Positions 107-29,451 of a stretch of 32,000 nucleotides of DNA are shown here, piece by piece. A program made the translations under genes and the position numbers. The notes beneath the pieces were generated by a model. That model searched no databases. It was not told the origin of the DNA and was given only the letters and a program-made list of their open reading frames with translations. Numbering within the stretch: position 1 is the stretch's first letter; each line of letters begins with the position of its first letter. The stretch is from Candidatus Saccharimonadota bacterium (GTDB taxonomy: Bacteria > Bacteroidota > Bacteroidia > Cytophagales > Amoebophilaceae), in contig NZ_OW441264.1 in NCBI RefSeq assembly GCF_936981045.1, positions 300,001 through 332,000 on the forward strand, written 5' to 3'.

Positions 107-347
107 ACGTGAGTTCGGGATTTATTTGACTGATTTACAACAATTTAATATCAATTATTTAGTTAATATTTGCACCTATTTAACAAGTTTTTATATCTAA
201 TTTTATAAATATAATATATATAATAAACTGATTACCAGAATTATTTGTTATTCAACTACCTATTTAACTGTCTAATAAAACAAATTTTATAAATTTTCAT
301 TGATATTGATTATCAAATGAAAAAATAATCTAATCCCGAACTCACGT
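107..347 (+). repeat. MITE-like element, copy 1 (241 bp; '+' = arbitrary forward orientation)
   Basis: Starts ACGTGAGTTCGGGATTT and ends CTAATCCCGAACTCACGT, giving a perfect 16-nt terminal inverted repeat ACGTGAGTTCGGGATT. Flanked by direct TAATA (102-106) and TAATA (348-352). Removing the element plus one TAATA restores the IS256-A reading frame. The element is AT-rich with no ORF. Confidence 0.9.
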
Positions 348-796: not shown

Positions 797-985
797 TTAT
801 TCAATTCTGTTTTCAAATTTAATTAAAAAATGTGCCATAGCCTCGCTCCAGTTATGAATAGAGGTGGTCCATTTTTTAGTCATGTAGTTAATAGTTAGAT
901 ATAATGTTTTAAAAACAGCTAGATCGTTAGGGAACACTCTTTTATTTTTGGTAACTCTACGAAATTGGCTATTTACAGATTCCAA
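797..985 (-). pseudogene. IS256-B transposase, C-terminal segment (frame-shifted from the rest)
   Basis: ..ESVNSQFRRVTKNKRVFPNDLAVFKTLYLTINYMTKKWT..NWSEAMAHFLIKFENRIE is the IS256-type C-terminus. It lies in a different frame from ORF 973..1545. Confidence 0.8.
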
Positions 986-1545
986 ACATTTGTTGTGTAA
1001 ATGACCTTACGTATGGCATTAGGGTACTGTAAAAATACCATCAGATTATCCCAGTTAGCATACCAAGATTGGGCTATTTGTGGGTATTGTTGATTCCACT
1101 TAGTAGCAAAAGCTTCTAAGGCCATCAATGCTTTTTGCTCGGTAACTGCTGTATAAATTGGTTTTAAATCAGCAACTAATACCTTTCTATGTTTATAAGA
1201 AACATACTGCAAACTACCCCTAATTGCATGAACAATACAGAGCTGATGTTCCGTTTTTGGGTATACAGCAGCAATGGCCTCAGACATGCCTGACAAATTA
1301 TCTGTACATGCAATGAGCATATCGTTCATACCCCGATTTTTGAGTTCTGTTAAATTGCCTAACCAAAATTTAGCCCCTTCATTTTCACTCATCCAAAGCC
1401 CTAAAACATCCTTTATGCTAGATCTATCTATACCTAAAGCGACATAGACTGCCTTTTTGATGATGCGCTTATCTTGTCTAACTTTAACTACAAAGCAATC
1501 AAAAAAACAATAGGATAGACTGATTCTAAGGGACGATTTTGCCAT
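973..1545 (-). pseudogene. IS256-B transposase, central catalytic segment
   Basis: ..FFDCFVVKVRQDKRIIKKAVYVALGIDRSSIKDVLGLWMSENEGAKFW...LIACTDNLSGMSEAIAAVYPKTEHQLCIVHAIRGS...VIYTTN carries the DDE-type IS256 blocks. A further frameshift sits in a T-run (7 T here versus 8 T at 10652-10659). Upstream, 1546-1645 still encodes SDIQIQIQELYGAEVSESLISNITDSV. Confidence 0.8.
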
Positions 1546-1751
1546 ATCTTAACATCTTCAACAACAGAGTCTGTGATGTTACTTATCAGGCTTTCACTTA
1601 CTTCTGCGCCATATAATTCCTGTATTTGAATCTGAATATCTGACAACCTAAGTTCGGGATTAGCTTGTTAAAAAATAGCTTTAAAAAGCTCCTTTGTGTT
1701 TTAAATTTGGAGATAAAAAAATACTAACCAGATTATCCAAAGGAGCCAGTT

Positions 1752-2000
1752 ATGAATGTAGAAAAATTAGTTGAAATATATTATGCTGTTGATGAATTTC
1801 TCATAAAGTTTATGCCGTATATGGAAAAACAACTGTTAACCAACTCTAAAAGAAAACCCACTAGAACTTGTTCATTAACTTTGAGTGAAATAATGACTGT
1901 TCTTATTGCCTTTCATGTGATTGGTTTTAGAAATTTTAAGTCTTATTATATTCATTTACAGCAATTTCATTCTAGTAAATTTGGAAAGTTAGTAAGCTAG
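1752..2000 (+). CDS. IS982-family transposase, N-terminal part (ends at in-frame TAG)
   Basis: MNVEKLVEIYYAVDEFLIKF...SLTLSEIMTVLIAFHVIGFRNFKSYY...KFGKLVS* matches the IS982-type N-terminus (xxVDDF, SxSEIxTxxIxF, and the LPSY-xRF region where the stop sits). An AGGAG Shine-Dalgarno sequence lies 7 nt upstream. Confidence 0.8.
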   Translation: MNVEKLVEIYYAVDEFLIKFMPYMEKQLLTNSKRKPTRTCSLTLSEIMTVLIAFHVIGFRNFKSYYIHLQQFHSSKFGKLVS

Positions 2001-2027
2001 AATAGATTTATAGAACTGATCCAAAGA

Positions 2028-2633
2028 ATGTTAGTTCCCTTGTACTGTTTTACACAAAGTTTTTCTAAAACAAAAACAGGTTGTTATTTTATGGATGCAA
2101 CAGCCATCAAGGTTTGCCATATCAAAAGAGCCTATACGCACAGGGTTTTTAAATCGATTGCTACTAAAGGTAAAACCAGCATCGGTTGGTTTTTTGGATT
2201 AAAGTTGCACTTGATAGTCAATGATTTAGGAGAAATTATGAATTTTCAACTGACCACAGGTAAAACTAATGATAGGCTTCCTGTAGAAAATTTATGTAAA
2301 CACTTGATGGGTAAAATGTTTGCCGATAAAGGTTACATAAGCAAAGATTTATTTAAAAAACTGATCGAGAAAGGCGTGGAACTCATTACCCAGATCAGAA
2401 AAAATATGAAAAATGCTTTTATGCCACTTTGGGATAAACTGATGCTTAGAAAACGATCTATAATTGAAACTATTATAGATCAGCTCAAAAATATTAGCCA
2501 GATAGAACATTCCAAGCATAGAAGCATACCTAATTTTCCAGTCAATTTGATAGCTGGAATTACAGCTTATGCACTAAAAGAGAAAAAACCTTCTATAACT
2601 AATATATATATGACTGGTTCACAACGCGTCTAA
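2028..2633 (+). CDS. IS982-family transposase, catalytic C-terminal part (same frame as 1752..2000)
   Basis: ..YFMDATAIKVCHIKRA...GWFFGLKLHLIVNDLGEI...FADKGYISKDLFKKLIEKGVELITQIRKNMKN...RKRSIIETIIDQLKN.. shows the D, D and E blocks characteristic of IS982-family DDE transposases. Confidence 0.85.
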   Translation: MLVPLYCFTQSFSKTKTGCYFMDATAIKVCHIKRAYTHRVFKSIATKGKTSIGWFFGLKLHLIVNDLGEIMNFQLTTGKTNDRLPVENLCKHLMGKMFADKGYISKDLFKKLIEKGVELITQIRKNMKNAFMPLWDKLMLRKRSIIETIIDQLKNISQIEHSKHRSIPNFPVNLIAGITAYALKEKKPSITNIYMTGSQRV

Positions 2634-2741
2634 TCCCGAACTGAGGTTATAAGATACTACTCTTTTTCTTGAAAGATCTCGCAAATGTCGTCATATTGTA
2701 GCTTCGCTCCCATTGGGCCTCTAATGCTTTATAATCTAGTA

Positions 2742-2981
2742 ACGTGAGTTCTGGATTAGATTATTTTTTCATTTGATAATCAATATTGATAAAAATTTAT
2801 AAAATTTGTTTTATAGACAGTTAAATAGGTAGTTGAATAACAAATAATTCTTATAATCAGTTTATTATATATATTATATTTATAAAATTAGATATAAAAA
2901 CTTGTTAAATAGGTGCAAATACTAACTAAATAATTGATATTAAATTGTTGTAAATCAGTCAAATAAATCCCGAACTCACGT
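2742..2981 (-). repeat. MITE-like element, copy 2 (reverse orientation)
   Basis: Collinear with the reverse complement of copy 1 over its full length. It carries the tip variant ACGTGAGTTCTGGATTAG. The flanking pentamers TAGTA and TGCTA are not identical. Confidence 0.85.
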
Positions 2982-9204: not shown

Positions 9205-9326
9205 AACATAATCAAGGGACAAGAAATTTACTGATTTTATCATGCTTATACAAATTAATTTAACATAAAAATGAGTTCTTTTGGACCTGTTTTCAGAAAC
9301 AAGCTGATGATGGCTTGCTTCATAAG

Positions 9327-10068
9327 TATACTGGACTGAAAAAATCGGACAAAAATATTTTAATTTATTTTCCGTATCGTTTAGTTTTAGAGTCATACAA
9401 TAAATTAATCAGATGGGTAGAAATAAGATTAGGCATTTTAGTTCGGAAGAAAAAACTAAGATAGTATTCGCTTTACTAAAAGAAGATTTAACGCTAGTTG
9501 AGCTGTCTTCCAAATATGGCGTCACTAGTAAAACCCTTCAAAATTGGAAGCGTCAATTTTTAGAGAATGCCTCTATAGCCTTTGATCCATCCAAGGTTGT
9601 TAGTGTGTATAAAGAGGAAATTAGCACACTTAAGCATCAAAACGATGCACTTGCGAAGGCTTTAGGAAAGGCTACCGTTGAGCGAGATTGGGCAGTGGGC
9701 AAGCTAAAGAGCTTGGATTTACCAAATAAGCAAAGTCTTGTCACATGCAAGCTTCCCAATTTATCCAAGGCAAGACAATGTGCATTATTATCGATACATC
9801 GCTCTTTGATATATTACAAAGCTAGGGAATTAAGTGGTTGTAATACATCTGTTTTAAACAAAATAGATTCAATCTACAGGGAACATCCGGAATATGGTTA
9901 TCGCTATATATACAATCAGCTACAAGAGGATGGCTTTAATGTAGGCAGAGATCGTGTGCTTAAGTATATGGGTGTACTGAATATATCGGCTGTTTATCCA
10001 CGTAAGAAGCCCTCTATTTCTTGTAGAAATGCTCAGCATAAGGTCGTATGTTTATAGAGGAAAAAAAT
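9327..10068 (+). mobile_element. IS3-family IS 'type D', copy D1 (left end plus 5' part, truncated)
   Basis: Begins TATACTGGACTGAAAAAATCGGAC, the same terminus seen at 13022, 28146, 27118 (rc) and 17148 (rc). It stops abruptly where the IS256-B left terminus begins (10069). The IS3 sequence does not resume after that element. Confidence 0.85.
9413..10057 (+). pseudogene. IS3-family transposase (HTH/leucine-zipper OrfA region fused in frame to start of integrase region), truncated
   Basis: MGRNKIRHFSSEEKTKIVFALLKEDLTLVELSSKYGVTSKTLQNWKRQF... is the HTH_Tnp_1-like part. It is followed by LSKARQCALLSIHRSLIYYK...YGYRYIYNQLQEDGFNVGRDRVLKYM, the start of an IS3 OrfB. The DDE core is missing. Confidence 0.8.
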
Positions 10069-10138: not shown

Positions 10139-11056
10139 ATGAAAAGAAAAGAGACAGTTAAAGATGGGATAAGCAAGGCCATAGATGTACTGATAGAATC
10201 AGGTGTAGACCTTTCCAGACTTTTTGATCAAGATGGCTTACTCAAACAATTAAGTAAGCGTCTTGTAGAAAAAGCATTACAGTCAGAAATGGATTACCAT
10301 TTAGGTTATAATAAGTATGCACGTAGTGATTCAGAGAATGTACGTAATAGATTATCCAGTAAGCAAGTTATTACTGATAATGGCGTTATATCGGTTGAAG
10401 TACCCAGAGATAGAGCATCGACTTTTGAACCTATTTTATTGCCTAATCGTCAAACAAGAATTCCTGGTTTGGATGATAAGATCTTATCTTTATATGCTAA
10501 AGGTATGAGTCTGTCAGATATTCAGATTCAAATACAGGAATTATATGGCGCAGAAGTAAGTGAAAGCCTGATAAGTAACATCACAGACTCTGTTATTGAA
10601 GATGTTAAGATATGGCAAAATCGTCCCTTAGAATCAGTCTATTCTATTGTTTTTTTTGATTGCTTTGTAGTTAAAGTTAGACAAAATAAGCGCATCATCA
10701 ACAAGGCAGTCTATGTCGCTTTAGGTATAGATAGATCTGGCATAAAGGATGTTTTAGGGCTTTGGATGAGTGAAAATGAAGGGGCTAAATTTTGGTTAGG
10801 CAATTTAACAGAACTCAAAAATCGGGGTATGAACGATATGCTCATTGCATGTACAGATAATTTGTCAGGCATGTCTGAGGCCATTTCTGCTGTATACCCA
10901 AAAACGGAACATCAGCTCTGTATTGTTCATGCAATTAGGGGTAGTTTGCAGTATGTTTCTTATAAACATAGAAAGGTATTAGTTGCTGATTTAAAACCAA
11001 TTTATACAGCAGTTACTGAGCAAGAAGCATTGATGGCCTTAGAAGCTTTTGCTACT
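10139..11056 (+). pseudogene. IS256-B transposase, N-terminal 306 codons (then runs into MITE-3)
   Basis: This is the longest version of the type-B protein (MKRKETVKDGISKAIDVLIESGVDLSRLFDQDGLLKQLSKRLVEKALQSEMDYHLGY...). The last 11 codons of track ORF 10139..11092 (NVSSGLDYFFI*) are MITE-encoded. Confidence 0.85.
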
Positions 11057-11057
11057 A

Positions 11058-11297
11058 ACGTGAGTTCGGGATTAGATTATTTTTTCATTTGATAATCAAT
11101 ATTAATAAAAATTTATAAAATTTGTTTTATAGACAGTTAAATAGGTAGTTTAATAACAAATAATTCTGGTAATCAGTTTATTATATATATTATATTTATA
11201 AAATTAGATATAAAAACTTGTTAAATAGGTGCAAATATTAACTAAATAATTGATATTAAATTGTTGTAAGTCAGTCAAATAAATCCCGAACTCACGT
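11058..11297 (-). repeat. MITE-like element, copy 3 (reverse orientation)
   Basis: Full-length, with tips ACGTGAGTTCGGGATTAG and AATCCCGAACTCACGT. The flanking pentamers TACTA and TATTC differ. They correspond to two IS256-B positions that lie 240 bp apart in copy B1. Confidence 0.9.
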
Positions 11298-11505: not shown

Positions 11506-13005
11506 ATGCACAATGCGGTTAAAAAACTTGGTAAAGAAACCATTATATATGGTATAAGCAACATTATCGTACGCGGATGTGCGTATTTGGCTTTACTACT
11601 TCAAACCAATGTACTGACGCCCAGTGCATATAGCATTATTATAGAATTCTATGGAAGTTATATTGCTTTGGGCCACGTCATCTATGATTTGGCCATGGAT
11701 ATGACCTATTTTAGGTATGTACATACATTAGGCAAACAATATACCTTCAATATAATTGTAACTATATTACTGGTTACCAGTATTATTTTTTCAACCTTAC
11801 TCATCATATATACCCCACAAATCGCAAAAATAACCAACCACTTAGCCCATATACGTTATTTCTATTATATGGCTGGTATTCTTATGCTAGATACCCTATT
11901 GATGATGCCCTATGCGAACCTACGTGTAGAAAAAAAGACCTTTTGGTTTCTGGCGGTGAAATTTTTACAAGCTTTTGCGAATCTTACTTTTTCTTTTATT
12001 TTACTTTATTGCCCTCTATATTTAAGATATATAGAATATTTAATGTATAGTGGTTTAAATGTAACCCTATATTTAAATGGGTTAGATGCTGTTTTTATAG
12101 CCAATTTATTGTCTAACCTAACCGCTTTAGCCTTTCTACTACCAAATTTTAAGGGATTTTATTTAATCTGGAATAGCCGTACAACTCGGGCAATAGGCGG
12201 TTATGCAGCCACTTCTTTTTTTACAACGTTGTTTTTTAGGATGAATGAGACACTACCTCTTTTATTATTTCGACAATTGGTTCCTAATAATTTTTATAGC
12301 ACCCATACAAAGGAGGAAATGTTAGGCAACTTTGGCACCTCCTATAAGCTAACTCTATGTATAACATTAGGGATTCAAGCCTTTAAACATGCTGCAGAAC
12401 CATTTTTTTTTGCCAACTCAGGTCGCAAGGAGGCGCTAAAGCTATATAGCCAAACGATGCATCTATTTATACTAGCATCCTGCTTCTGCCTATTGCTTTT
12501 TAGTTTAAATATAAATTGGGTGGCAAAAATCCTGATTCCGAATGCAGGTTATCGTCACACCATTGACACCGTATCCTACTTAGCATTTGCACATATTCTT
12601 TTAGGTGTCTATTACAACTTTAGTGCGGCCTTTAAACTGAGCGATCATCCACGATATAATACTTGGATCAGTGCATTGGGCAGCCTAGTGATTGGGTTTA
12701 CAGCACTTCTATTGATACCGAGATGGGCCCATTGGGGCTGCGTATACGCCTCTATCAGTGGTGTAACTGCTATGGGGCTACTGGGGTATTATATGGGTCA
12801 AAAATGTTATCCAATACCTTATCATGCACATGGTTTTTTACTTCTTTTGCTTACCTTTTTAGTATTGGGGAAAGTTTCCTTATGGCCAGCCCAACTCGCT
12901 TTTTTAGGCACAGGGTGGGCCTATATATTCCTTCATATAACGATTTTGGCCACCTTTTATATCATATCCATTGGATGGAAAAAGTTTATTAACCTTACAA
13001 AATAA
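11506..13005 (+). CDS. Polysaccharide/oligosaccharide flippase family protein (Wzx/MOP-like), 499 aa
   Basis: A multi-pass hydrophobic protein. Its N-terminus KKLGKETIIYGISNIIVRGCAYLALLLQTNVLTPSAYS...MDMTYFRY resembles Bacteroidota 'polysaccharide biosynthesis protein' flippases. The family call is from pattern memory only. Confidence 0.65.
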   Translation: MHNAVKKLGKETIIYGISNIIVRGCAYLALLLQTNVLTPSAYSIIIEFYGSYIALGHVIYDLAMDMTYFRYVHTLGKQYTFNIIVTILLVTSIIFSTLLIIYTPQIAKITNHLAHIRYFYYMAGILMLDTLLMMPYANLRVEKKTFWFLAVKFLQAFANLTFSFILLYCPLYLRYIEYLMYSGLNVTLYLNGLDAVFIANLLSNLTALAFLLPNFKGFYLIWNSRTTRAIGGYAATSFFTTLFFRMNETLPLLLFRQLVPNNFYSTHTKEEMLGNFGTSYKLTLCITLGIQAFKHAAEPFFFANSGRKEALKLYSQTMHLFILASCFCLLLFSLNINWVAKILIPNAGYRHTIDTVSYLAFAHILLGVYYNFSAAFKLSDHPRYNTWISALGSLVIGFTALLLIPRWAHWGCVYASISGVTAMGLLGYYMGQKCYPIPYHAHGFLLLLLTFLVLGKVSLWPAQLAFLGTGWAYIFLHITILATFYIISIGWKKFINLTK

Positions 13006-13021
13006 TAGCTGGTCAAGGAAT

Positions 13022-13156
13022 TATACTGGACTGAAAAAATCGGACAAAAATATTTTAATTTATTTTCCGTATCGTTTAGTTTTAGAGTCATACAATAAAT
13101 TAATCAGATGGGTAGAAATAAGATTAGGCATTTTAGTTCGGAATAAAAAATTAAGA
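13022..13156 (+). mobile_element. IS3 'type D' left-end fragment (D2, 135 bp)
   Basis: Near-identical to 9327-9461, covering the terminus through the first codons MGRNKIRHFSS. It is cut off by MITE-4. Confidence 0.85.
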
Positions 13157-13393
13157 ACGTGAGTTCGGGATTTATTTGACTGATTTACAACAATTTAATA
13201 TCAATTATTTAGTTAATATTTGCACCTATTTAACAAGTTTTTATATCTAATTTTATAAATATAATATATATAATAAACTGATTATAAGAATTATTTGTTA
13301 TTCAACTACCTATTTAACTGTCTATAAAACAAATTTTATAAATTTTTATTAATATTAATTATCAAATGAAAAAATAATCTAATCCCGAACTCA
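13157..13393 (+). repeat. MITE-like element, copy 4 (forward; right tip lacks last 3 nt)
   Basis: Starts ACGTGAGTTCGGGATTT and ends ..CTAATCCCGAACTCA, followed by unrelated sequence. The left flank is IS3 and the right flank is the IS5-like remnant, so this is a chimeric junction. Confidence 0.85.
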
Positions 13394-13450
13394 TTTTATT
13401 ATTTATTGGTTTTCAGGTTTATTTCAGTTCATTTTTGATAGACCATTCCC

Positions 13451-13636: not shown

Positions 13637-14467
13637 GTGTGCAACAAATGGGGTGTAAGTCCCCTGACTCTAATTTGTCTATTTCGGGAGTCTAGCAGGA
13701 GGTTGGATTTGTGGGGTGATTCACAGGTTTAAGTTACCTTTAAATGCATCTGCAAAATAGCGAGCTGCAACAAAAGTGAACCCAAATTAGCCTCGTTAAG
13801 CCGTTTAAGCGCATTTGCCGACTGTCTAGTGGCTACAGGAAGGCTGATAGTAGGATGGAAAAAAATAGACCATGACCATCATACAAGTGCCGGGGTGTTA
13901 GGGGTTGCACGCTATGAATGTTTCACATCGTAGTCCGGGAAATCTGATATGAATCCAGTAGGCTACTGGAAACTTTATTGTGTAAGTAAAGCGAAATCAA
14001 TAAACGTGAGTTCGGGATTAGATTATTTTTTCATTTGATAATCAATATCAATGAAAATTTATAAAATTTTTTTTATAGACAGTTAAATAGGTAGTTGAAT
14101 AACAAATAATTCTTATAATCAGTTTATTATATATATTATATTTATAAAATTAGATATAAAAACTTGTTAAATAGGTGCAAATATTAACTAAATAATTGAT
14201 ATTAAATTGTTGTAAATCAGTCAAATAAATCCCGAACTCACGTAATAAGGGTGATATCAGAAGTCCGCGGGGTCCATAATACCGTTCGTATTGATTGGGA
14301 AACCACTCAAGAGGAAAGGGACCCTACTTCAGTTAACGAGTTTAAAAGAGTTGAGAATGTCTGATTGCCCTAAAGCTATGAACGGAACATTAAAAGTTCG
14401 GCAACTCCAAAGAACTCTATATCTTAAATCCAAGCAATGTAAGGAAGTCAGATTTTATAGTCTATAT
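13637..14467 (+). mobile_element. Group II intron, 5' fragment G1 (ribozyme domains plus first 37 codons of the RT/maturase), interrupted by MITE-5 and truncated by IS982 copy C2
   Basis: Begins GTGTG (GUGYG consensus) at 13637. About 580 nt of non-coding, comparatively GC-rich sequence follow. Then the ATG at 14357 opens MSDCPKAMNGTLKVRQLQRTLYLKSKQCKEVRFYSLY, matching the typical N-terminus of bacterial group II intron reverse transcriptases (..LQ..LY.K.K.....RFY.LYDK). Domains V/VI and the rest of the ORF are absent. Confidence 0.75.
14004..14243 (-). repeat. MITE-like element, copy 5 (reverse orientation), intact insertion
   Basis: Perfect tips, flanked by direct AATAA (13999-14003) and AATAA (14244-14248). 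It lies inside the group II intron fragment. Confidence 0.92.
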
Positions 14468-14574
14468 ACCTGAGTTCGGGATTAGCTTGTTAAAAAATAG
14501 CTTTAATAAAGTTCCTTTGTTTTTTAAATTTGGAGATAAAAAAATACTAACCAGATTATCCAAAGGAGCCAGTT

Positions 14575-14823
14575 ATGAATGTAGAAAAATTAGTTGAAAT
14601 ATATTATGCTGTTGATGAATTTCTCATAAAGTTTATGCCGTATATGGAAAAACAACTGTTAACCAATTCTAAAAGAAAACCCACTAGAACTTGTTCATTA
14701 ACTTTGAGTGAAATAATGACTATTCTTATTGCCTTTCATGTGATTGGTTTTAGAAATTTTAAGTCTTATTATATTCATTTACAGAAATTTCATTCTGGTG
14801 AATTTGGAAAGTTAGTAAGCTAG
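14575..14823 (+). pseudogene. IS982-family transposase, N-terminal part (copy C2)
   Basis: Differs from 1752..2000 at only 5 of 82 residues by my manual comparison. It ends at the same TAG. Confidence 0.8.
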
Positions 14824-14884
14824 AATAGATTTATAGAACTGATCCAAAGAACGTTAGTTCCCTTGTACTGTTTTACACAAAGTC

Positions 14885-15454
14885 TTGCTAAAAAAAACAG
14901 GTTGTTATTTTATGGATGCAACAGCCATCAAGGTTTTCCATATCAAAAGAGCCTATACGCACAGGGTTTTTAAATCGATTGCTACTAAAGGTAAAACCAG
15001 CATCGGTTGGTTTTTTAGATTAAATTTGCACTTGATAGTCAATGATTTAGGAGAAATTATGAATTTTCAACTGACCACAGGTAAAACTAATGATAGGCTT
15101 CCTGTAGAAAATTTGTATAAACACTTGATGGGTAAAATGTTTGCCGATAAAGGTTACATAAGCAAAGATTTATTTGAAAAACTGATCGAGAAAGGCGTGG
15201 AACTCATTACCCAGATCAGAAAAAATATGAAAAATGCTTTTACGCCACTCTGGGATAAACTGATGCTTAGAAAACGATCTATAATTGAAACTATTATAGA
15301 TCAGCTCAAAAATATTAGCCAGATAGAACATTCCAGGCATAGAAGCATACCTAATTTTCTAGTCAATTTGATAGCTGGAATTACAGCTTATGCACTAAAA
15401 GAGAAAAAACCTTCTATAACTAATATATATATGACTGGTTCACAATACGTCTAA
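14885..15454 (+). pseudogene. IS982-family transposase, C-terminal part (copy C2, frame-shifted relative to N-part)
   Basis: Same protein as 2028..2633 with several substitutions. It is in a different frame from 14575..14823. Confidence 0.8.
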
Positions 15455-15458
15455 TCCC

Positions 15459-16396
15459 GGAGTCTTTTGTTTTAAGTGTATAAATATTTTTTAGGATTTA
15501 TCTTTACCTAAATCATAACACTTAAAACAATGAAAAGAAAAGAGACAGTTAAAGATAGGATAAGCAAGGCCATAGATGTACTGATAGAATCAGGTGTAGA
15601 CCTTTCCAGACTTTTTGATCAAGACGGCTTACTCAAACAATTAAGTAAGCGTCTTGTAGAAAAAGCATTATATGCTAAAGGTATGAGTCTGTCAGATATT
15701 CAGATTCAAATACAGGAATTATATGGCGCAGAAGTAAGTGAAAGCCTGATAAGTAACATCACAGACTCTGTTATTGAAGATGTTAAGATATGGCAAAATC
15801 GTCCCTTAGAATCAGTCTATTCTATTGTTTTTTTTGATTGCTTTGTAGTTAAAGTTAGACAAGATAAGCGCATCATCAACAAGGCAGTCTATGTTGCTTT
15901 AGGTATAGATAGATCTAGCATAAAGGATGTTTTAGGGCTTTGGATGAGTGAAAATGAAGGGGCTAAATTTTGGTTAGGCAATTTAACAGAACTCAAAAAT
16001 CGGGGTATGAACGATATGCTCATTGCATGTACAGATAATTTGTCAGGCATGTCTGAGGCCATTGCTGCTGTATACCTAAAAACGGAACATCAGCTCTGTA
16101 TTGTTCATGCAATTAGGGGTAGTTTGCAGTATGTTTCTTATAAACATAGAAAGGTATTAGTTGCTGATTTAAAACCAATTTATACAGCAGTTACCGAGCA
16201 AAAAGCATTGATGGCCTTAGAAGCTTTTGCTACTAAGTGGAATCAACAATATCCACAAATAGCCTAATCTTGGTATGCTAACTGGGATAATCTGATGGTA
16301 TTTTTACAGTACCCTAATGCCATGCGTAAGGTCATTTACACAACAAATGTTTGGAATCTGTAAATAGCCAATTTCGTAGAGTTACCAAAAATAAAA
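15459..16396 (+). mobile_element. IS256-family IS 'type B', copy B3 (internal deletion, 3'-truncated by MITE-6)
   Basis: The left terminus matches 10069 onward. About 210 bp are missing relative to B2 (B2 has EKALQSEMDY...KILSLYAKGMSL, here EKALYAKGMSL). There is a TAA at 16265-16267. It shares the 1-nt frameshift at ~16346-16358 with B1. It ends at ..ACCAAAAATAAAA next to the MITE. Confidence 0.85.
15530..16267 (+). pseudogene. IS256-B transposase (copy B3, deleted and prematurely stopped)
   Basis: Track ORF of 245 aa, collinear with B2 apart from the internal deletion. Confidence 0.85.
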
Positions 16397-16637
16397 AAGT
16401 GAGTTCGGGATTTATTTGACTGATTTACAACAATTTAATATCAATTATTTAGTTAATATTTGCACCTATTTAACAAGTTTTTATATCTAATTTTATAAAT
16501 ATAATATATATAATAAACTGATTACCAGAATTATTTGTTATTCAACTACCTATTTAACTGTCTAATAAAACAAATTTTATAAATTTTCATTGATATTGAT
16601 TATCAAATGAAAAAATAATCTAATCCCGAACTCAGGT
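16397..16637 (+). repeat. MITE-like element, copy 6 (forward), chimeric junction
   Basis: The left tip variant is AAGTGAGTTCGGGATTT. The right tip is CTAATCCCGAACTCAGGT, so the last 7 nt match the IS982-type tip (rc ACCTGAG) rather than the usual CTCACGT. The left flank is IS256-B3 (TAAAA) and the right flank is IS3 (ATTGA). Confidence 0.88.
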
Positions 16638-17148
16638 ATTGATTATAATTGTAATGGAAAGATTTTTTAGAACCCTAAAATATAATTGCATATTTATCAA
16701 TGATTTTAAAAATATTAAAGTGTTAAAAGAGGGAATTAATAGGTACATTACCAAGTATAATTATAAAAGATTCTATTCTAGCATTAACTATCAAAAACCT
16801 ATGAACGTGAGTTCGGGATTAGATTATTTTTTCATTTGATAATCAATATCAATGAAAATTTATAAAATTTGTTTTATTAGACAGTTAAATAGGTAGTTGA
16901 ATAACAAATAATTCTGGTAATCAGTTTATTATATATATTATATTTATAAAATTAGATATAAAAACTTGTTAAATAGGTGCAAATATTAACTAAATAATTG
17001 ATATTAAATTGTTGTAAATCAGTCAAATAAATCCCGAACTCACGTTATGAGTGTTTATCTTAGGTATTTAAAAAATGGGGGCTAGAAAATGGGAAAAAGT
17101 AGGAAACAAAATTAAGGAAAATTTGTCCGAAGAAATCAGTCCAGTATA
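16638..17148 (+). mobile_element. IS3 'type D' 3' fragment (D3: end of integrase ORF plus right terminus), interrupted by MITE-7
   Basis: 16639-16803 encodes ..MERFFRTLKYNCIFINDFKNIKVLKEGINRYITKYNYKRFYSSINYQKPM, the IS3 OrfB C-terminus (compare 27181..27453). After the MITE it continues to ..GAAGAAATCAGTCCAGTATA, the inverted copy of the left terminus. Confidence 0.85.
16805..17045 (-). repeat. MITE-like element, copy 7 (reverse orientation), intact insertion
   Basis: Perfect tips, flanked by direct TATGA (16800-16804) and TATGA (17046-17050). The uninterrupted paralogous site exists in IS3 copy D4 (~27210-27230, minus strand). Confidence 0.92.
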
Positions 17149-20145: not shown

Positions 20146-20437
20146 TCAAAAAAAAATTACATTGGCCAGTTCCACAAGCTTATGCGTTTAGGTGATCGGC
20201 TTACCCCTAAGGTAAGCTCTCTATTTTAAAGTTACAAACTAATCATGCGAACAGCAAAAATAATCTTATAACCTAAGTTCGGGATTAGCTTGTTAAAAAA
20301 TAGCTTTAAAAAGCTTCTTTGTGTTTTAAATTTGGAGATAAAAAAATACTAACCAGATTATCCAAAGGAGCCAGTTATGAATGTAGAAATAATTAGTTGA
20401 AATATATTATGCTGTTGATGAATTTCTCATAAAGTTT

Positions 20438-20626
20438 ATGCCGTATATGGAAAAACAACTGTTAACCAACTCTAAAAGAAAACCCACTAGAACTTGTTCA
20501 TTAACTTTGAGTGAAATAATGACTGTTCTTATTGCCTTTCATGTGATTGGTTTTAGAAATTTTAAGTCTTATTATATTCATTTACAGCAATTTCATTCTA
20601 GTAAATTTGGAAAATTAGTAAGCTAG
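20438..20626 (+). pseudogene. IS982-family transposase, N-terminal part (copy C3, 5' frameshift)
   Basis: Identical in sequence to residues 21-82 of 1752..2000. It ends at the same TAG. Confidence 0.8.
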
Positions 20627-20665
20627 AATAGATTTGTAGAACTGATCCAAAGAACGTTAGTTCCC

Positions 20666-21259
20666 TTGTACTGTTTTACACAAAGTCTTTCTAAAACAAA
20701 AACAGGTTGTTATTTTATGGATGCAACAGCCATCAAGGTTTGCCATATCAAAAGAGCCTATACGCACAGGGTTTTTAAATCGATTGCTACTAAAGGTAAA
20801 ACCAGCACCGGTTGGTTTTTTGGATTAAAGTTGCACTTGATAGTCAATGATTTAGGAGAAATTATGAATTTTCAACTGACCACAGGTAAAACTAATGATA
20901 GGCTTCCTGTAGAAAATTTGTGTAAACACTTGATGGGTAAAATGTTTGCCAATAAAGGTTACATAAGCAAAGATTTATTTAAAAAACTGATCGAGAAAGG
21001 CGTGGAACTCATTACCCAGATCAGAAAAAATATGAAAAATGCTTTTATGCCACTCTGGGATAAACTGATGCTTAGAAAACGATCTATAATTGAAACTATT
21101 ATAGATCAGCTCAAAAATATTAGCCAGATAGAACATTCCAGGCATAGAAGCATACCTAATTTTCTAGTCAATTTGATAGCTGGAATTACAGCTTATGCAC
21201 TAAAAGAGAAAAAACCTTCTATAACTAATATATATATGACTGGTTCACAATACGTATAA
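20666..21259 (+). pseudogene. IS982-family transposase, C-terminal part (copy C3)
   Basis: Same frame as 20438..20626. It is near-identical to 28795..29388. Confidence 0.8.
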
Positions 21260-21562
21260 TCCCGAACTGAGGTGCTTACTAATAATGGCAACCCACCCAA
21301 ACCCACATGCATGTTTCATTAACATTACTTTTCATAAAAAAACTAAATGGCCGAAAAAACGGCTTGTTTTAAATTTCTTTGTGGCATACAAATTCTATTT
21401 ATTAGACAACGTGATAAAAACCTATTTCTGTTGTAGTGCATCTTATACATTTAATAATTATTTATTTCAATAACCATTTGGCTTACCTGTACTGGTTTAT
21501 TTGTATTTTCAAAGGGTCTCATTATCTTTATAAATAGTTTAAAAATCTACAATTTTTAATGC

Positions 21563-27099: not shown

Positions 27100-27180
27100 A
27101 AAAATCGGACAAAAAAGTATACTGGACTGATTTATTCGGACATTTTTTTCTTAATTTTATTTTCTATTTTTTCCCATTTG

Positions 27181-27453
27181 CTAGTCCAGCAATTTTACAT
27201 GGTTAAGATAGACGTTCATAGATTTTTGATAATTAATACTAGAATAAAACCTTTGGTAATTGTATTTAGTAATGTACCTGTTAATTCCCTCTTTTAACAC
27301 TTTAATATTTTTAAAATCATTGATAAATATGGAATTATATTTTAGGGTTGTAAAAAATATTTCCATTACAATATTATCAATGCTTCTACCTCTGCCATTC
27401 ATAGAGATTTGAATATTATGCCTTTTTAATAAGTCTGTATGCTTAACAACCAC
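27181..27453 (-). pseudogene. IS3-family integrase C-terminal remnant (copy D4)
   Basis: ..NGRGRSIDNIVMEIFFTTLKYNSIFINDFKNIKVLKEGINRYITKYNYQRFYSSINYQKSMNVY.. is paralogous to 16639-16803. Confidence 0.8.
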
Positions 27454-27874
27454 TTAATTCCCTAGCTTTGTAATATATCAAAGAGTCATGTATCGATAAT
27501 AATGCACATTGTCTTGCCTTGGATAAGTTGGGAAGCTTGGATCTGACAAGACTTTGCTTATTTAGTAAATCCAAGCTCTTTAGCTTTCCCACTGCCCAAT
27601 CTCGCTCAACGGTAGCCTTTCCTAAAGCCTTCTCAAGTGCATCGTTTTGATGCTTAAGTGTGCTAATTTCCTCTTTATACACACTAACAACCTTTGATGG
27701 ATCAAAGGCTATAGAGGCATTCTCTAAAAATTGACACTTCCAATTTTGAAGGGTTTTACTAGTGACGCCATATTTGGAAGACAGCTCAACTAGCGTTAAA
27801 TCTTCTTTTAGTAAAGCGAATACTATCTTAGTTTTTTCTTCCGAACTAAAATGCCTAATCTTATTTCTACCCAT
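27443..27874 (-). pseudogene. IS3-family transposase OrfA-region (copy D4)
   Basis: 143 aa, near-identical to the first 143 residues of 9413..10057. Confidence 0.85.
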
Positions 27875-27902: not shown

Positions 27903-28142
27903 ACGTGAGTTCGGGATTAGATTATTTTTTCATTTGATAATCAATATTAATAAAAATTTATAAAATTTGTTTTATAGACAGTTAAATAGGTAGTTGAATA
28001 ACAAATAATTCTGATAATCAGTTTATTACATATATTATATTTATAAAATTAGATATAAAAACTTGTTAAATAGGTGCAAATATTAACTAAATAATTGATA
28101 TTAAATTGTTGTAAATCAGTCAAATAAATCCAGAACTCACGT
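27903..28142 (-). repeat. MITE-like element, copy 8 (reverse orientation)
   Basis: Full length. The left flank is TAAAA (27898-27902) and the right flank is GATTA. Its private variants (..AAATCCAGAACTCACGT tip, CTGATAATC, ATTACATAT) are shared only with copy 9. Confidence 0.9.
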
Positions 28143-28208
28143 GATTATACTGGACTGAAAAAATCTGACAAAAATATTTTAATTTATTTTCCGTATCGTT
28201 TAGTTTTA
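28143..28208 (+). mobile_element. 66-bp segment containing the IS3 'type D' left terminus, inverted relative to the adjacent IS3 copy D4
   Basis: GATTA + TATACTGGACTGAAAAAATCTGACAAAAATATTTTAATTTATTTTCCGTATCGTTTAG + TTTTA matches 9327-9389 in plus orientation, whereas D4 is in minus orientation. Confidence 0.85.
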
Positions 28209-28506
28209 ACGTGAGTTCTGGATTTATTTGACTGATTTACAACAATTTAATATCAATTATTTAGTTAATATTTGCACCTATTTAACAAGTTTTTATATCT
28301 AATTTTATAAATATAATATATGTAATAAACTGATTATCAGAATTATTTGTTATTCAACTACCTATTTAACTGTCTATAAAACAAATTTTATAAATTTTTA
28401 ACCTGAGTTCGGGATTAGCTTGTTAAAAAATAGCTTTAAAAAGCTTCTTTGTGTTTTAAATTTGGAGATAAAAAAATACTAACCAGATTATCCAAAGGAG
28501 CCAGTT

Positions 28507-28755
28507 ATGAATGTAGAAAAGTTAGTTGAAATATATTATGCTGTTAATGAATTTCTCATAAAGTTTATGCCGTATATGGAAAAACAACTGTTAACCAACT
28601 CTAAAAGAAAACCCACTAGAACTTGTTCATTAACTTTGAGTGAAATAATGACTGTTCTTATTGCCTTTCATGTGATTGGTTTTAGAAATTTTAAGTTTTA
28701 TTATGTTCATTCACAGAAATTTCATTCTAGTGAATTTGGAAAGTTAGTAAGCTAG
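28507..28755 (+). CDS. IS982-family transposase, N-terminal part (copy C4)
   Basis: 82 aa. It ends at the shared TAG and is in frame with 28795..29388. Confidence 0.8.
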   Translation: MNVEKLVEIYYAVNEFLIKFMPYMEKQLLTNSKRKPTRTCSLTLSEIMTVLIAFHVIGFRNFKFYYVHSQKFHSSEFGKLVS

Positions 28756-28794
28756 AATAGATTTGTAGAACTGATCCAAAGAACGTTAGCTCCC

Positions 28795-29388
28795 TTGTAC
28801 TGTTTTACACAAAGTCTTTCTAAAACAAAAACAGGTTGTTATTTTATGGATGCAACAGCCATCAAGGTTTGCCATATCAAAAGAGCCTATACGCACAGGG
28901 TTTTTAAATCGATTGCTACTAAAGGTAAAACCAGCACCGGTTGGTTTTTTGGATTAAAGTTACACTTGATAGTCAATGATTTAGGAGAAATTATGAATTT
29001 TCAACTGACCACAGGTAAAACTAATGATAGGCTTCCTGTAGAAAATTTGTGTAAACACTTGATGGGTAAAATGTTTGCCGATAAAGGTTACATAAGCAAA
29101 GATTTATTTAAAAAACTGATCGAGAAAGGCGTGGAACTCATTACCCAGATCAGAAAAAATATGAAAAATGCTTTTATGCCACTCTGGGATAAACTGATGC
29201 TTAGAAAACGATCTATAATTGAAACTATTATAGATCAGCTCAAAAATATTAGCCAGATAGAACATTCCAGGCATAGAAGCATACTTAATTTTCTAGTCAA
29301 TTTGATAGCTGGAATTACAGCTTATGCACTAAAAGAGAAAAAACCTTCTATAACTAATATATATATGACTGGTTCACAATACGTCTAA
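28795..29388 (+). CDS. IS982-family transposase, C-terminal part (copy C4)
   Basis: 197 aa carrying the DDE blocks described for 2028..2633. Confidence 0.85.
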   Translation: MYCFTQSLSKTKTGCYFMDATAIKVCHIKRAYTHRVFKSIATKGKTSTGWFFGLKLHLIVNDLGEIMNFQLTTGKTNDRLPVENLCKHLMGKMFADKGYISKDLFKKLIEKGVELITQIRKNMKNAFMPLWDKLMLRKRSIIETIIDQLKNISQIEHSRHRSILNFLVNLIAGITAYALKEKKPSITNIYMTGSQYV

Positions 29389-29451
29389 TCCCGAACTTAG
29401 GTTGATATTGATTATCAAACGAAAAAATAATCTAATCCCGAACTCATGTTA

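What the first reader, a model, noticed from the sequence alone, without database searches (positions are those of the whole stretch)
1646..2647. The MITE tips share the core and offset of the IS982-family element's tips: candidate autonomous partner
The IS982-like tips are ACCT[A/G/C]AGTTCGGGATTAG in all four copies. The MITE tips are ACGTGAGTTCGGGATT[T/A]. Both start with AC, and both carry the same 11-nt core AGTTCGGGATT beginning at nucleotide 6. One MITE end continues ..ATTAG exactly as the IS does. MITE copy 6 (16397-16637) has a right tip CTCAGGT, which is the IS982-type tip (rc ACCTGAG) instead of CTCACGT. No other IS family in this window has similar ends. That makes the IS982-family transposase the most plausible mobilising enzyme for the MITE. 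A caveat is that I could not see target duplications flanking the four IS982 copies, whereas the MITE makes 5-bp ones.
Basis: partly seen in the sequence, partly recalled or inferred. Interest (0 to 1): 0.62.

Follow-up and report, generated by a model that had tools for sequence, protein, structure and literature searches.

The report
Known Cardinium MITE and its IS982 helper
The 1-kb jumping gene at 1646-2647 and the 240-bp gene-less repeats around it do share their end sequences, insertion-site preference and 5-bp target duplication, so the small repeat almost certainly borrows the big one's enzyme, but this pair (ISCca4 and MITECca01 of a spider's Cardinium symbiont) was published in 2022.

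Summary
The genome (1,137,202 bp, 36.71% GC) matches Cardinium cOegibbosus. Halter et al. 2022 (PMC9769881) named the 240-bp repeat MITECca01 (169 copies) and proposed the IS982-family element ISCca4 as its parent and helper. Earlier agents of this scan reached the same verdict on other windows of this genome.

All 25 core hits in the window belong to 9 MITE copies and 4 IS copies. Genome-wide, no other element class carries the core.

What I add:
The IS also makes 5-bp duplications. Eight of 11 reconstructible empty sites show a 5-bp overlap, and the IS and MITE flanks have the same C-TAWTA-G target logo. Most IS duplications have been separated by recombination between IS copies. The duplication of the copy at 1646 (TGACA) is now split between it and a copy 785 kb away.
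- **Intact helper genes exist.** Six intact 293-aa transposase genes lie outside the window. All four window copies are broken.
- **The MITE family is not lineage-specific, contrary to the paper.** Decayed full-length relatives (~70% identity) occur in 8 of 16 other Cardinium genomes.

Mobilisation itself remains untested.

The parts
1646..2647 (+). ISCca4 (IS982 family) copy 1, 1002 bp. The transposase frame runs 1752-2633 and is broken by TAG at codon 83 (1998-2000).
   Evidence: Tips and frame. It is 99.1% identical to the IS consensus. Its left flank ends in TGACA inside an IS256-type element. The matching TGACA half-site lies next to the IS copy at genome 1086063.
14468..15459 (+). ISCca4 copy 2. 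The right end is truncated at element nt 993, so there is no right tip. It has TAG at codon 83 and further stops.
   Evidence: The same truncated copy with the same flanks occurs 3 times in the genome, so it is part of a larger duplicated segment.
20271..21273 (+). ISCca4 copy 3, 1003 bp. A +1 insertion at CDS nt 13 shifts the frame.
   Evidence: Flanks are TTATA and GCTTA, so no duplication is visible.
28401..29402 (+). ISCca4 copy 4, 1002 bp, with TAG at codon 83. It sits inside a MITE copy.
   Evidence: The left and right flanks come from two different sequence variants of the MITE and there is no duplication, so the flanks were recombined.
107..347 (-). MITECca01 copy, 241 bp, with 5-bp duplication TAATA.
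2742..2981 (+). MITECca01 copy, 240 bp, with no intact duplication (TAGTA / TGCTA).
11058..11297 (+). MITECca01 copy, 240 bp. It cuts off the 3' end of an IS256-type transposase frame (10139-11092).
13157..13396 (-). MITECca01 copy, 240 bp. One tip is mutated (..CTCATTT).
14004..14243 (+). MITECca01 copy, 240 bp, with 5-bp duplication AATAA.
16397..16637 (-). MITECca01 copy, 241 bp. Its AG-end tip is the IS type (ACCTGAG) and its other tip is mutated (AAGTGAG).
16805..17045 (+). MITECca01 copy, 241 bp, with 5-bp duplication TATGA.
27903..28142 (+). MITECca01 copy, 240 bp.
28209..29449 (-). MITECca01 copy split by ISCca4 copy 4. The MITE parts are 28209-28400 and 29403-29449.

Best explanation
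[quoted passage not shown] The ~240-bp repeats are MITECca01, a non-autonomous element that carries the same 16-18 nt terminal inverted repeat.

Proposed mechanism:
1. The DDE transposase made by the few intact ISCca4 copies binds the shared tips (AC-S-T-N-AGTTCGGGATT).
2. It pairs two ends and inserts the DNA between them at a C-TAWTA-G site through a 5-bp staggered cut.
3. Repair of the staggered cut leaves a 5-bp duplication.
4. Any DNA bounded by two such tips is moved in trans, whether it is a MITE or a full-length IS with a dead gene.

Shown here: the shared tips, the shared target logo, the shared 5-bp duplication, the intact transposase genes, the absence of any other element with these tips, and the recent near-identical copies.

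Inferred, not shown: binding of the tips by this transposase, and actual mobilisation. Whether transposition is cut-and-paste or copy-and-paste is unknown for the whole IS982 family (PMC7335449).
For: - **Family.** The intact ORF scores 265.8 bits on NF033520, the IS982-family transposase model (cut-off 130), and 233.9 bits on PF13612.
- **Tips.** classifies every core site in the genome. The MITE left tip is ACGTG in 144 copies and ACCTG in 21. The IS left tip is ACCTG/A in 47 copies and ACGTG in 8. Both elements fit the family consensus AC(N)6T(N)5TT (PMC7335449).
- **MITE duplication.** 73 of 157 MITEs have an exact 5-bp duplication against 6 expected from shuffled flank pairs.
- **Target.** The IS and MITE flank logos agree position by position. 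T at -5 is 0.76 vs 0.78. A at -1 is 0.90 vs 0.82. T at +1 is 0.79 vs 0.86. C at -6 is 0.41 vs 0.36. G at +6 is 0.41 vs 0.36.
- **IS duplication.** Uninterrupted paralogous copies of the host repeats serve as empty sites. They give a 5-bp overlap in 8 of 11 left/right pairings, with one each of 6, 7 and 8 bp. Four of those 11 pairings join the left flank of one IS copy to the right flank of a different copy, which shows the flanks were exchanged by recombination.
- **Related strain.** ISCca4 copies in strain cBtQ1 have a 5-bp duplication in 5 of 7 and 6 bp in 1.
- **Enzyme supply.** There are six intact 293-aa ORFs in the genome. The nearest are at genome 339972-340850 and 348768-349646.
- **Trans action.** 16 of 29 full-length IS copies share TAG at codon 83 and 6 share a +1 insertion at CDS nt 13, all at different loci. 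Defective copies were therefore amplified.
- **Recency.** The median distance to the family consensus is 1.7% for the MITE and 1.1% for the IS. Many MITE copies are identical to the consensus.
- **Published.** The same conclusion is in PMC9769881.
Against: - No experiment shows transposition of either element.
- The MITE interior has no detectable similarity to the IS. Only the tips match. Descent from the IS by internal deletion therefore rests on the tips and on the intermediates described in the paper.
- The commonest MITE tip (ACGTG) differs at position 3 from the commonest IS tip (ACCTG).
- Only 3 of 29 IS copies keep an exact duplication on their own two flanks (1.5 expected). The 5-bp figure for the IS rests on 11 reconstructed sites and on the flank logo.
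- Two other Cardinium genomes with dozens of IS982 copies (G012 and G021) have few or no MITE matches. An active IS does not by itself produce a MITE burst.
Confidence: 0.86

Rival explanations
1. The tips are shared only by common descent, and the MITE copies are now immobile fossils that no present-day enzyme moves.
For: Most IS copies are dead. 84 of 157 MITEs lack an exact duplication.
Against: Six intact transposase ORFs remain. Many MITE copies are identical to the consensus and the median divergence is 1.7%. MITEs interrupt IS copies that are themselves about 99% identical to the IS consensus.
Confidence: 0.08
2. A transposase of another IS family in the genome (IS6, IS5, IS256, IS3, IS110, IS4 or IS481 types) moves the MITE, and the resemblance to IS982 ends is incidental.
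For: The genome holds about 300 IS copies of many families (PMC9769881). The window itself holds IS256-, IS6- and IS3-type fragments.
Against: Every core site with 0-1 mismatch is a tip of the MITE or of an IS982-type element, apart from 4 stray or decayed sites. The sites with 2 mismatches lie inside other repeats and do not follow an AC end. The MITE and IS982 flanks share the same target logo and the same 5-bp duplication.
Confidence: 0.03
3. The MITE copies spread by segmental duplication or recombination rather than by transposition.
For: Recombination between repeats is frequent here. IS flanks have been exchanged and one truncated IS with its flanks occurs three times.
Against: 73 copies have exact 5-bp duplications against 6 expected. 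The copies have sharp common boundaries and sit at a specific target motif in unrelated flanks.
Confidence: 0.02

Closest known systems
MITECca01 and ISCca4 of Cardinium cOegibbosus-W744x776 (Halter, Hendrickx, Horn, Manzano-Marin 2022, Microbiol Spectr; PMC9769881)
   Same: It is the same genome by size and GC: 1.14 Mbp and 0.3671, against 1,137,202 bp and 36.71% here. The ISCca4 left-end sequence printed in the paper's Fig. S1 is the same. The MITE length of 240 bp and its 16-nt inverted repeat agree. The copy number is the same: 169 in the paper, and 169 interior hits of at least 170 nt here. The proposed helper is the same.
   Different: - The main text of the paper that I read gives no duplication length or target motif. 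Here it is 5 bp at C-TAWTA-G for both elements.
- The paper counts 7 intact ISCca4 copies. I find 6 intact full-length ORFs, 2 of them in copies that lack the right tip.
- The paper says the MITE is absent from other Cardinium strains. I find decayed relatives in 8 of 16 other genomes.
ISCca4 and ISCca1 of Cardinium cBtQ1 (ISfinder entries listed in Fayad et al. 2020, PMC7335449)
   Same: They are 999-1000 bp with a 291-aa transposase that is 79-84% identical to the one here. Their ends start with AC. Their duplications are at TAWTA-like sites.
   Different: Their tip core is AGTTT[T/C]GGATT with ACGTCAG, not AGTTCGGGATT. ISfinder lists duplications of 6 bp (ISCca4) and 4 bp (ISCca1), whereas the cBtQ1 copies I read show 5 bp in 5 of 7.
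Other bacterial MITE and IS pairs, such as RUP with IS630-Spn1 in Streptococcus pneumoniae and Nezha with ISNpu3-like elements in cyanobacteria (from my own knowledge, not checked here)
   Same: Each is a short, gene-less element with the terminal inverted repeats and target duplication of a resident IS, amplified to high copy number and presumed to be moved in trans.
   Different: They involve different IS families, tips and duplications. None is in a maternally inherited endosymbiont.

Membership tests
IS982 family (the 1-kb element) | The transposase matches the family's curated protein model. | tested here: met
   NF033520 scores 265.8 bits (cut-off 130). PF13612 DDE_Tnp_1_3 scores 233.9 bits over profile positions 4-155 of 155.
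IS982 family (the 1-kb element) | About 1 kb long, with one transposase gene of roughly 290 aa. | tested here: met
   Copies are 1000-1003 bp and the intact ORF is 293 aa.
IS982 family (the 1-kb element) | Terminal inverted repeats with AC ends and the conserved pattern AC(N)6T(N)5TT (PMC7335449). | tested here: met
   ACCTGAGTTCGGGATT and ACCTCAGTTCGGGATT both fit, and the two ends match in 17 of 18 nt. Distant family members from a cyanobacterium and a Chloroflexi genome carry ACGTGAGTTCGGGATAAG.
IS982 family (the 1-kb element) | DDE catalytic triad. | tested here: inconclusive
   The DDE-domain profile is matched end to end. Candidate motifs start at residues 112 (YFMDAT), 190 (FADKGY) and 237 (IIETII). 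I did not align them residue by residue to a characterised member, and no structure of the family exists (PMC7335449).
IS982 family (the 1-kb element) | Short direct target duplication, of variable length across the family. | tested here: met
   The overlap is 5 bp in 8 of 11 reconstructed sites, with single cases of 6, 7 and 8 bp.
MITE (the 240-bp element) | Shorter than about 300 bp with no coding capacity. | tested here: met
   The element is 240-241 bp and AT-rich. No ORF of at least 80 aa lies within any copy.
MITE (the 240-bp element) | Terminal inverted repeats and a target duplication. | tested here: met
   The inverted repeat is a perfect 16 nt, ACGTGAGTTCGGGATT. An exact 5-bp duplication is present in 73 of 157 copies against 6 expected.
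MITE (the 240-bp element) | The ends match an autonomous IS in the same genome that has an intact transposase. | tested here: met
   The ends match ISCca4 in 16-18 of 18 nt. Six intact ORFs are present.
MITE (the 240-bp element) | Mobilised in trans by that transposase. | not testable with these tools
   This needs a transposition assay or insertion polymorphism in reads.
MITECca01 (published element) | Same sequence, copy number and genome as in PMC9769881. | tested here: met
   Fig. S1 prints ACGTGAATTCGGGATTAGATTATT. Ours is ACGTGAGTTCGGGATTAGATTATT, which matches in 23 of 24 nt; the supplement is machine-read text.

The most novel reading that the evidence does not exclude
MITECca01 did not arise in the cOegib lineage, as the 2022 paper proposes. 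It would instead be the recently re-expanded branch of an old MITE family that is found across the genus Cardinium.

Evidence so far:
- Full-length, co-linear relatives at about 66-73% identity occur in 8 of 16 other Cardinium genomes, with 1 to 13 matches each. They keep the tips, the subterminal blocks (TATTTTTTAATTTGATAATCAAT and TGTAAATCA..AAATAAATCC) and 5-bp duplications.
- Three old copies lie in cOegib itself.

If this holds, a non-autonomous element has persisted beside IS982-type elements through the diversification of the genus. The 169-copy burst would be a reactivation rather than a birth.
Probability: 0.8. Interest if true: 0.3.

Novelty: already known. Interest (0 to 1): 0.17.

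Why it matters
The central claim, that the MITE borrows the IS982-family transposase, is the published reading for this genome, so it adds nothing new in itself.

The details added here are useful to specialists in three ways:
- They give the pair a defined insertion signature (5 bp at C-TAWTA-G). This makes annotation and the dating of insertions easier.
- They explain why the IS copies look as if they lack duplications: recombination between copies has scrambled this repeat-rich genome.
- They correct the published view that the MITE was born in this one lineage.

The shared inactivating lesions in 22 of 29 full-length IS copies are a natural indication that trans-mobilisation operates in this endosymbiont.

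Tried and rejected
- **Direct duplication test on IS copies.** Comparing the two flanks of the same IS copy failed: 3 of 29 match against 1.5 expected. I replaced it with empty-site reconstruction from paralogous host repeats, including pairings between different IS copies.
- **Genome-by-genome co-variation of MITE and IS tips.** I rejected this idea. In G013 the IS tips are ACCTGAGTTCGGGATT while the MITE copy there has ACGTGAGTTTTGGATT. Both core types occur in IS and in MITE copies somewhere in the genus, but not matched genome by genome.
- **Interior similarity between MITE and IS.** There is none beyond the tips.
- **Clade structure of the position-3 tip variant.** The variant does not mark a clear clade. 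The nearest-neighbour same-label fraction is 0.24 against 0.11 for the MITE (p about 0.03) and 0 for the IS.
- **Literature.** The Siguier et al. 2014 review (PMC7190074) is not held. I took the family features from Fayad et al. 2020 instead. The 2025 Cardinium review (PMC12342168) does not mention the MITE or ISCca4.

Full report
**Identity of the sequence**

The window is bases 300001-332000 of a single-contig genome of 1,137,202 bp with 36.71% GC. The transposase of the 1-kb element finds its nearest relatives (79-86% identity) in Cardinium endosymbiont genomes. A literature search led to Halter et al. 2022 (PMC9769881). That paper describes Cardinium cOegibbosus-W744x776 and matches this genome in several ways:
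- Its size is 1.14 Mbp and its GC content is 0.3671.
- It has a 240-bp element, MITECca01, in 169 copies.
- It has an IS982-family element, ISCca4, whose printed left end is the sequence seen here.
- It proposes ISCca4 as the MITE's parent and helper.

My count of MITE interiors of at least 170 nt is also 169. The finding is therefore a rediscovery of a published element pair. Two earlier follow-up reports of this scan, on other windows of this genome, reached the same verdict.

**Check of the observation**

The 11-nt core AGTTCGGGATT (up to 1 mismatch) occurs 25 times in the window against 0.32 expected. All 25 sites are tips:
- Eighteen belong to nine MITE copies. One of these copies is split by an IS.
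- Seven belong to four IS copies. One of these is truncated at element nt 993 and lacks its right tip.

The IS tips are ACCT[G/A]AGTTCGGGATTAGCTTG on the left. The right tip, read inward, is ACCTCAGTTCGGGATTAGACG in three of the four copies and begins ACCTAAG in the copy at 28401. The MITE tips are ACGTGAGTTCGGGATTAGATTA and ACGTGAGTTCGGGATTTATTTG. The core starts at nucleotide 6 in both elements.

The other mobile elements in the window are of IS256, IS6 and IS3 types, and none of them carries the core.

**Genome-wide picture**

There are 383 exact core sites. Pairing neighbouring sites gives 29 full-length IS copies of about 1002 bp. It also gives 164 short elements, 163 of them 230-259 bp long, of which 157 could be oriented for the MITE analyses. 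BLAST with the IS consensus finds many more interrupted or truncated copies. It also finds a second, older IS982 subfamily that is 87-89% identical to the first. That subfamily has left tip ACGTCAGTTCGGGATTAAATG and is degraded in every copy.

I classified every core site with up to 2 mismatches by the 14 nt that follow it. All sites with 0-1 mismatch are MITE or IS982-type tips, apart from four stray or decayed sites. The sites with 2 mismatches lie inside unrelated repeats.

**The transposase**

The intact ORF of 293 aa scores 265.8 bits on NCBIfam NF033520, the IS982-family transposase model (cut-off 130). It also covers the Pfam DDE_Tnp_1_3 profile end to end. The tips fit the family pattern AC(N)6T(N)5TT given by Fayad et al. 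2020 (PMC7335449).

All four window copies are broken. Three have TAG at codon 83, a tyrosine codon (TAC or TAT) in the intact copies, and one has a +1 insertion at CDS nt 13. Genome-wide, six copies have an uninterrupted full-length ORF. The nearest lie 8 kb and 17 kb beyond the window's end. No repair is therefore needed for an assay.

For the MITE, 73 of 157 copies have an exact 5-bp duplication against 6 expected from shuffled flank pairs. For the IS, only 3 of 29 do, against 1.5 expected. Three further lines of evidence resolve it.

1. *Flank logos.* The nucleotide frequencies in the five positions on each side of the IS are the same as those around the MITE: T-A-W-T-A, with C enriched at -6 and G at +6. 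A motif that fills exactly five positions on both sides is what a 5-bp duplication leaves behind.
2. *Empty sites.* Many IS copies sit inside other repeats, and the uninterrupted paralogues of those repeats serve as empty sites. Joining IS left flanks to IS right flanks and asking which junctions exist elsewhere in the genome gave 11 pairings. Eight overlap by 5 bp, and one each by 6, 7 and 8 bp.
   - Clean same-copy cases are TATTA at genome 339955, TAATA at 347433 and TTATA at 814429. The last is an IS with an intact ORF inserted into a copy of the older subfamily.
   - Four pairings join flanks of different IS copies. The copy named in the finding (1646-2647) ends its left flank in ..TATCTGACA, inside an IS256-type element. 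The copy at genome 1086063 has the right flank TGACAGACTCATAC... Twenty-two uninterrupted copies of that IS256-type element read ..TATCTGACAGACTCATAC... The TGACA duplication was therefore made and later split by recombination between IS copies.
3. *Related strain.* In strain cBtQ1, whose records are named, ISCca4 copies show a 5-bp duplication in 5 of 7 and 6 bp in 1.

**Further support for action in trans**

Of the 29 full-length IS copies, 16 share the TAG at codon 83 and 6 share the +1 insertion at CDS nt 13, all at different loci. Copies that could not make their own enzyme were amplified. This is expected if the enzyme acts on any pair of tips, although gene conversion between copies could also spread a lesion.

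The median distance to the family consensus is 1.7% for the MITE and 1.1% for the IS, so both expansions are recent and of similar age.

The position-3 variant is exchanged between the two elements, mainly at the ends that share 18 nt. The form ACCT occurs at 21 of 177 MITE tips of the AG type but at only 6 of 174 tips of the other type (Fisher p = 0.004). The form ACGT occurs at 8 of 61 IS left tips and 1 of 50 right tips.

**Limits**

- The interior of the MITE has no similarity to the IS. Descent by deletion is therefore not visible in the sequence itself.
- No experiment exists.
- Two Cardinium genomes with dozens of IS982 copies have few or no MITE matches.

**A point that differs from the paper**

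The paper states that blastn found the MITE in no other Cardinium strain and infers a lineage-specific origin.

- *First search.* A search of 47 other Amoebophilaceae genomes with the MITE consensus gave matches in 11 of 16 other genomes of the same genus. Several of these were full-length (1-240) matches at 66-73% identity, with E-values down to 8e-29.
- *Alignment.* The alignment shows conserved tips, conserved subterminal blocks and co-linearity over the whole length.
- *Profile search.* A sequence profile built from 13 copies found full-length matches in 8 of 16 other Cardinium genomes, with 1 to 13 matches each. The profile's source genomes match it by construction.
- *Independent genome.* A copy in G013, a genome that did not contribute to the profile, is complete. 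It has tips ACGTGAGTTTTGGA and a perfect 5-bp duplication AATTA.
- *Old copies at home.* cOegib itself holds three copies at about 70% identity, with near-identical sequence on both sides.

I conclude, at about 80% confidence, that the family is old in the genus and that cOegib shows a re-expansion. An attempt to show that MITE tips track the IS tips genome by genome failed, and I make no such claim.

**Verdict**

Interest is low. The only modestly new items are the shared 5-bp C-TAWTA-G signature, the recombination-split duplications, and the older relatives of the MITE in other strains.

Noticed in passing
window 1998-2000, and the same codon in the IS copies at 14468 and 28401; genome-wide: 16 of 29 full-length ISCca4 copies share TAG at codon 83, a tyrosine codon (TAC or TAT) in the intact copies. 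Six more share a +1 insertion at CDS nt 13. All are at different loci. Dead copies were therefore amplified, either by trans-mobilisation or by gene conversion.
   Followed up: partly
window 973-1645 with genome 1086063-1087065: An IS256-type transposase fragment (973-1545, minus strand) is cut at ..TGACA by the IS982 copy at 1646. The other half of that IS256-type element, starting TGACAGACTC, lies next to another IS982 copy about 785 kb away. This is the signature of rearrangement by recombination between IS copies.
   Followed up: yes
window 28209-29449: A MITE is interrupted by an IS982 copy. The two MITE halves belong to different sequence variants (..TTTTTA on the left, TGATATTGATT.. on the right) and there is no duplication. 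The IS copy at genome 400387 has the same right flank and an apparent 7-bp duplication, TGATATT. The flanks were probably exchanged between two IS copies that had each inserted into a MITE.
   Followed up: partly
genome 741256-742249, 813606-815605 and 989790-990689 (outside the window): There is an older IS982 subfamily, 87-89% identical to ISCca4, with left tip ACGTCAGTTCGGGATTAAATG. All of its copies are degraded, and one is interrupted by an intact ISCca4 with duplication TTATA. The paper's table lists no ISCca1 in this genome, so these copies were presumably counted as ISCca4.
   Followed up: partly
genome 226405-226583, 586334-586512 and 623453-623631 (outside the window); L083, L124: Three copies of an old MITE relative (about 70% identity) lie in cOegib. 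All three are preceded by ..CCTGAAGTATTA, and the same left flank precedes relics in two other Cardinium genomes. The three cOegib copies also share the sequence that follows them. The relic seems to travel as part of another repeated element.
   Followed up: partly
all MITE and IS tips genome-wide: The C/G variant at tip position 3 is shared between the IS and the MITE, mostly at the ends that are identical over 18 nt. It occurs at 21 of 177 MITE AG-end tips against 6 of 174 tips at the other end. It is only weakly clustered among related copies. This suggests short-patch exchange between IS and MITE ends, or recurrent mutation.
   Followed up: partly
window 11506-13005: A 499-aa ORF has no Pfam match at E <= 0.001. 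It lies between a MITE (11058-11297) and a repeat shared with 9324-9461.
   Followed up: no
window 9316-9461, 13011-13156, 27107-27162 and 28135-28280: A repeat starts ..TATACTGGACTGAAAAAATCGGACAAAAATATTTTAATTTATTTT. At two of the four sites it lies next to an IS3-type frame (9413-10057 and 27443-27874), so it is probably the end of that IS.
   Followed up: no
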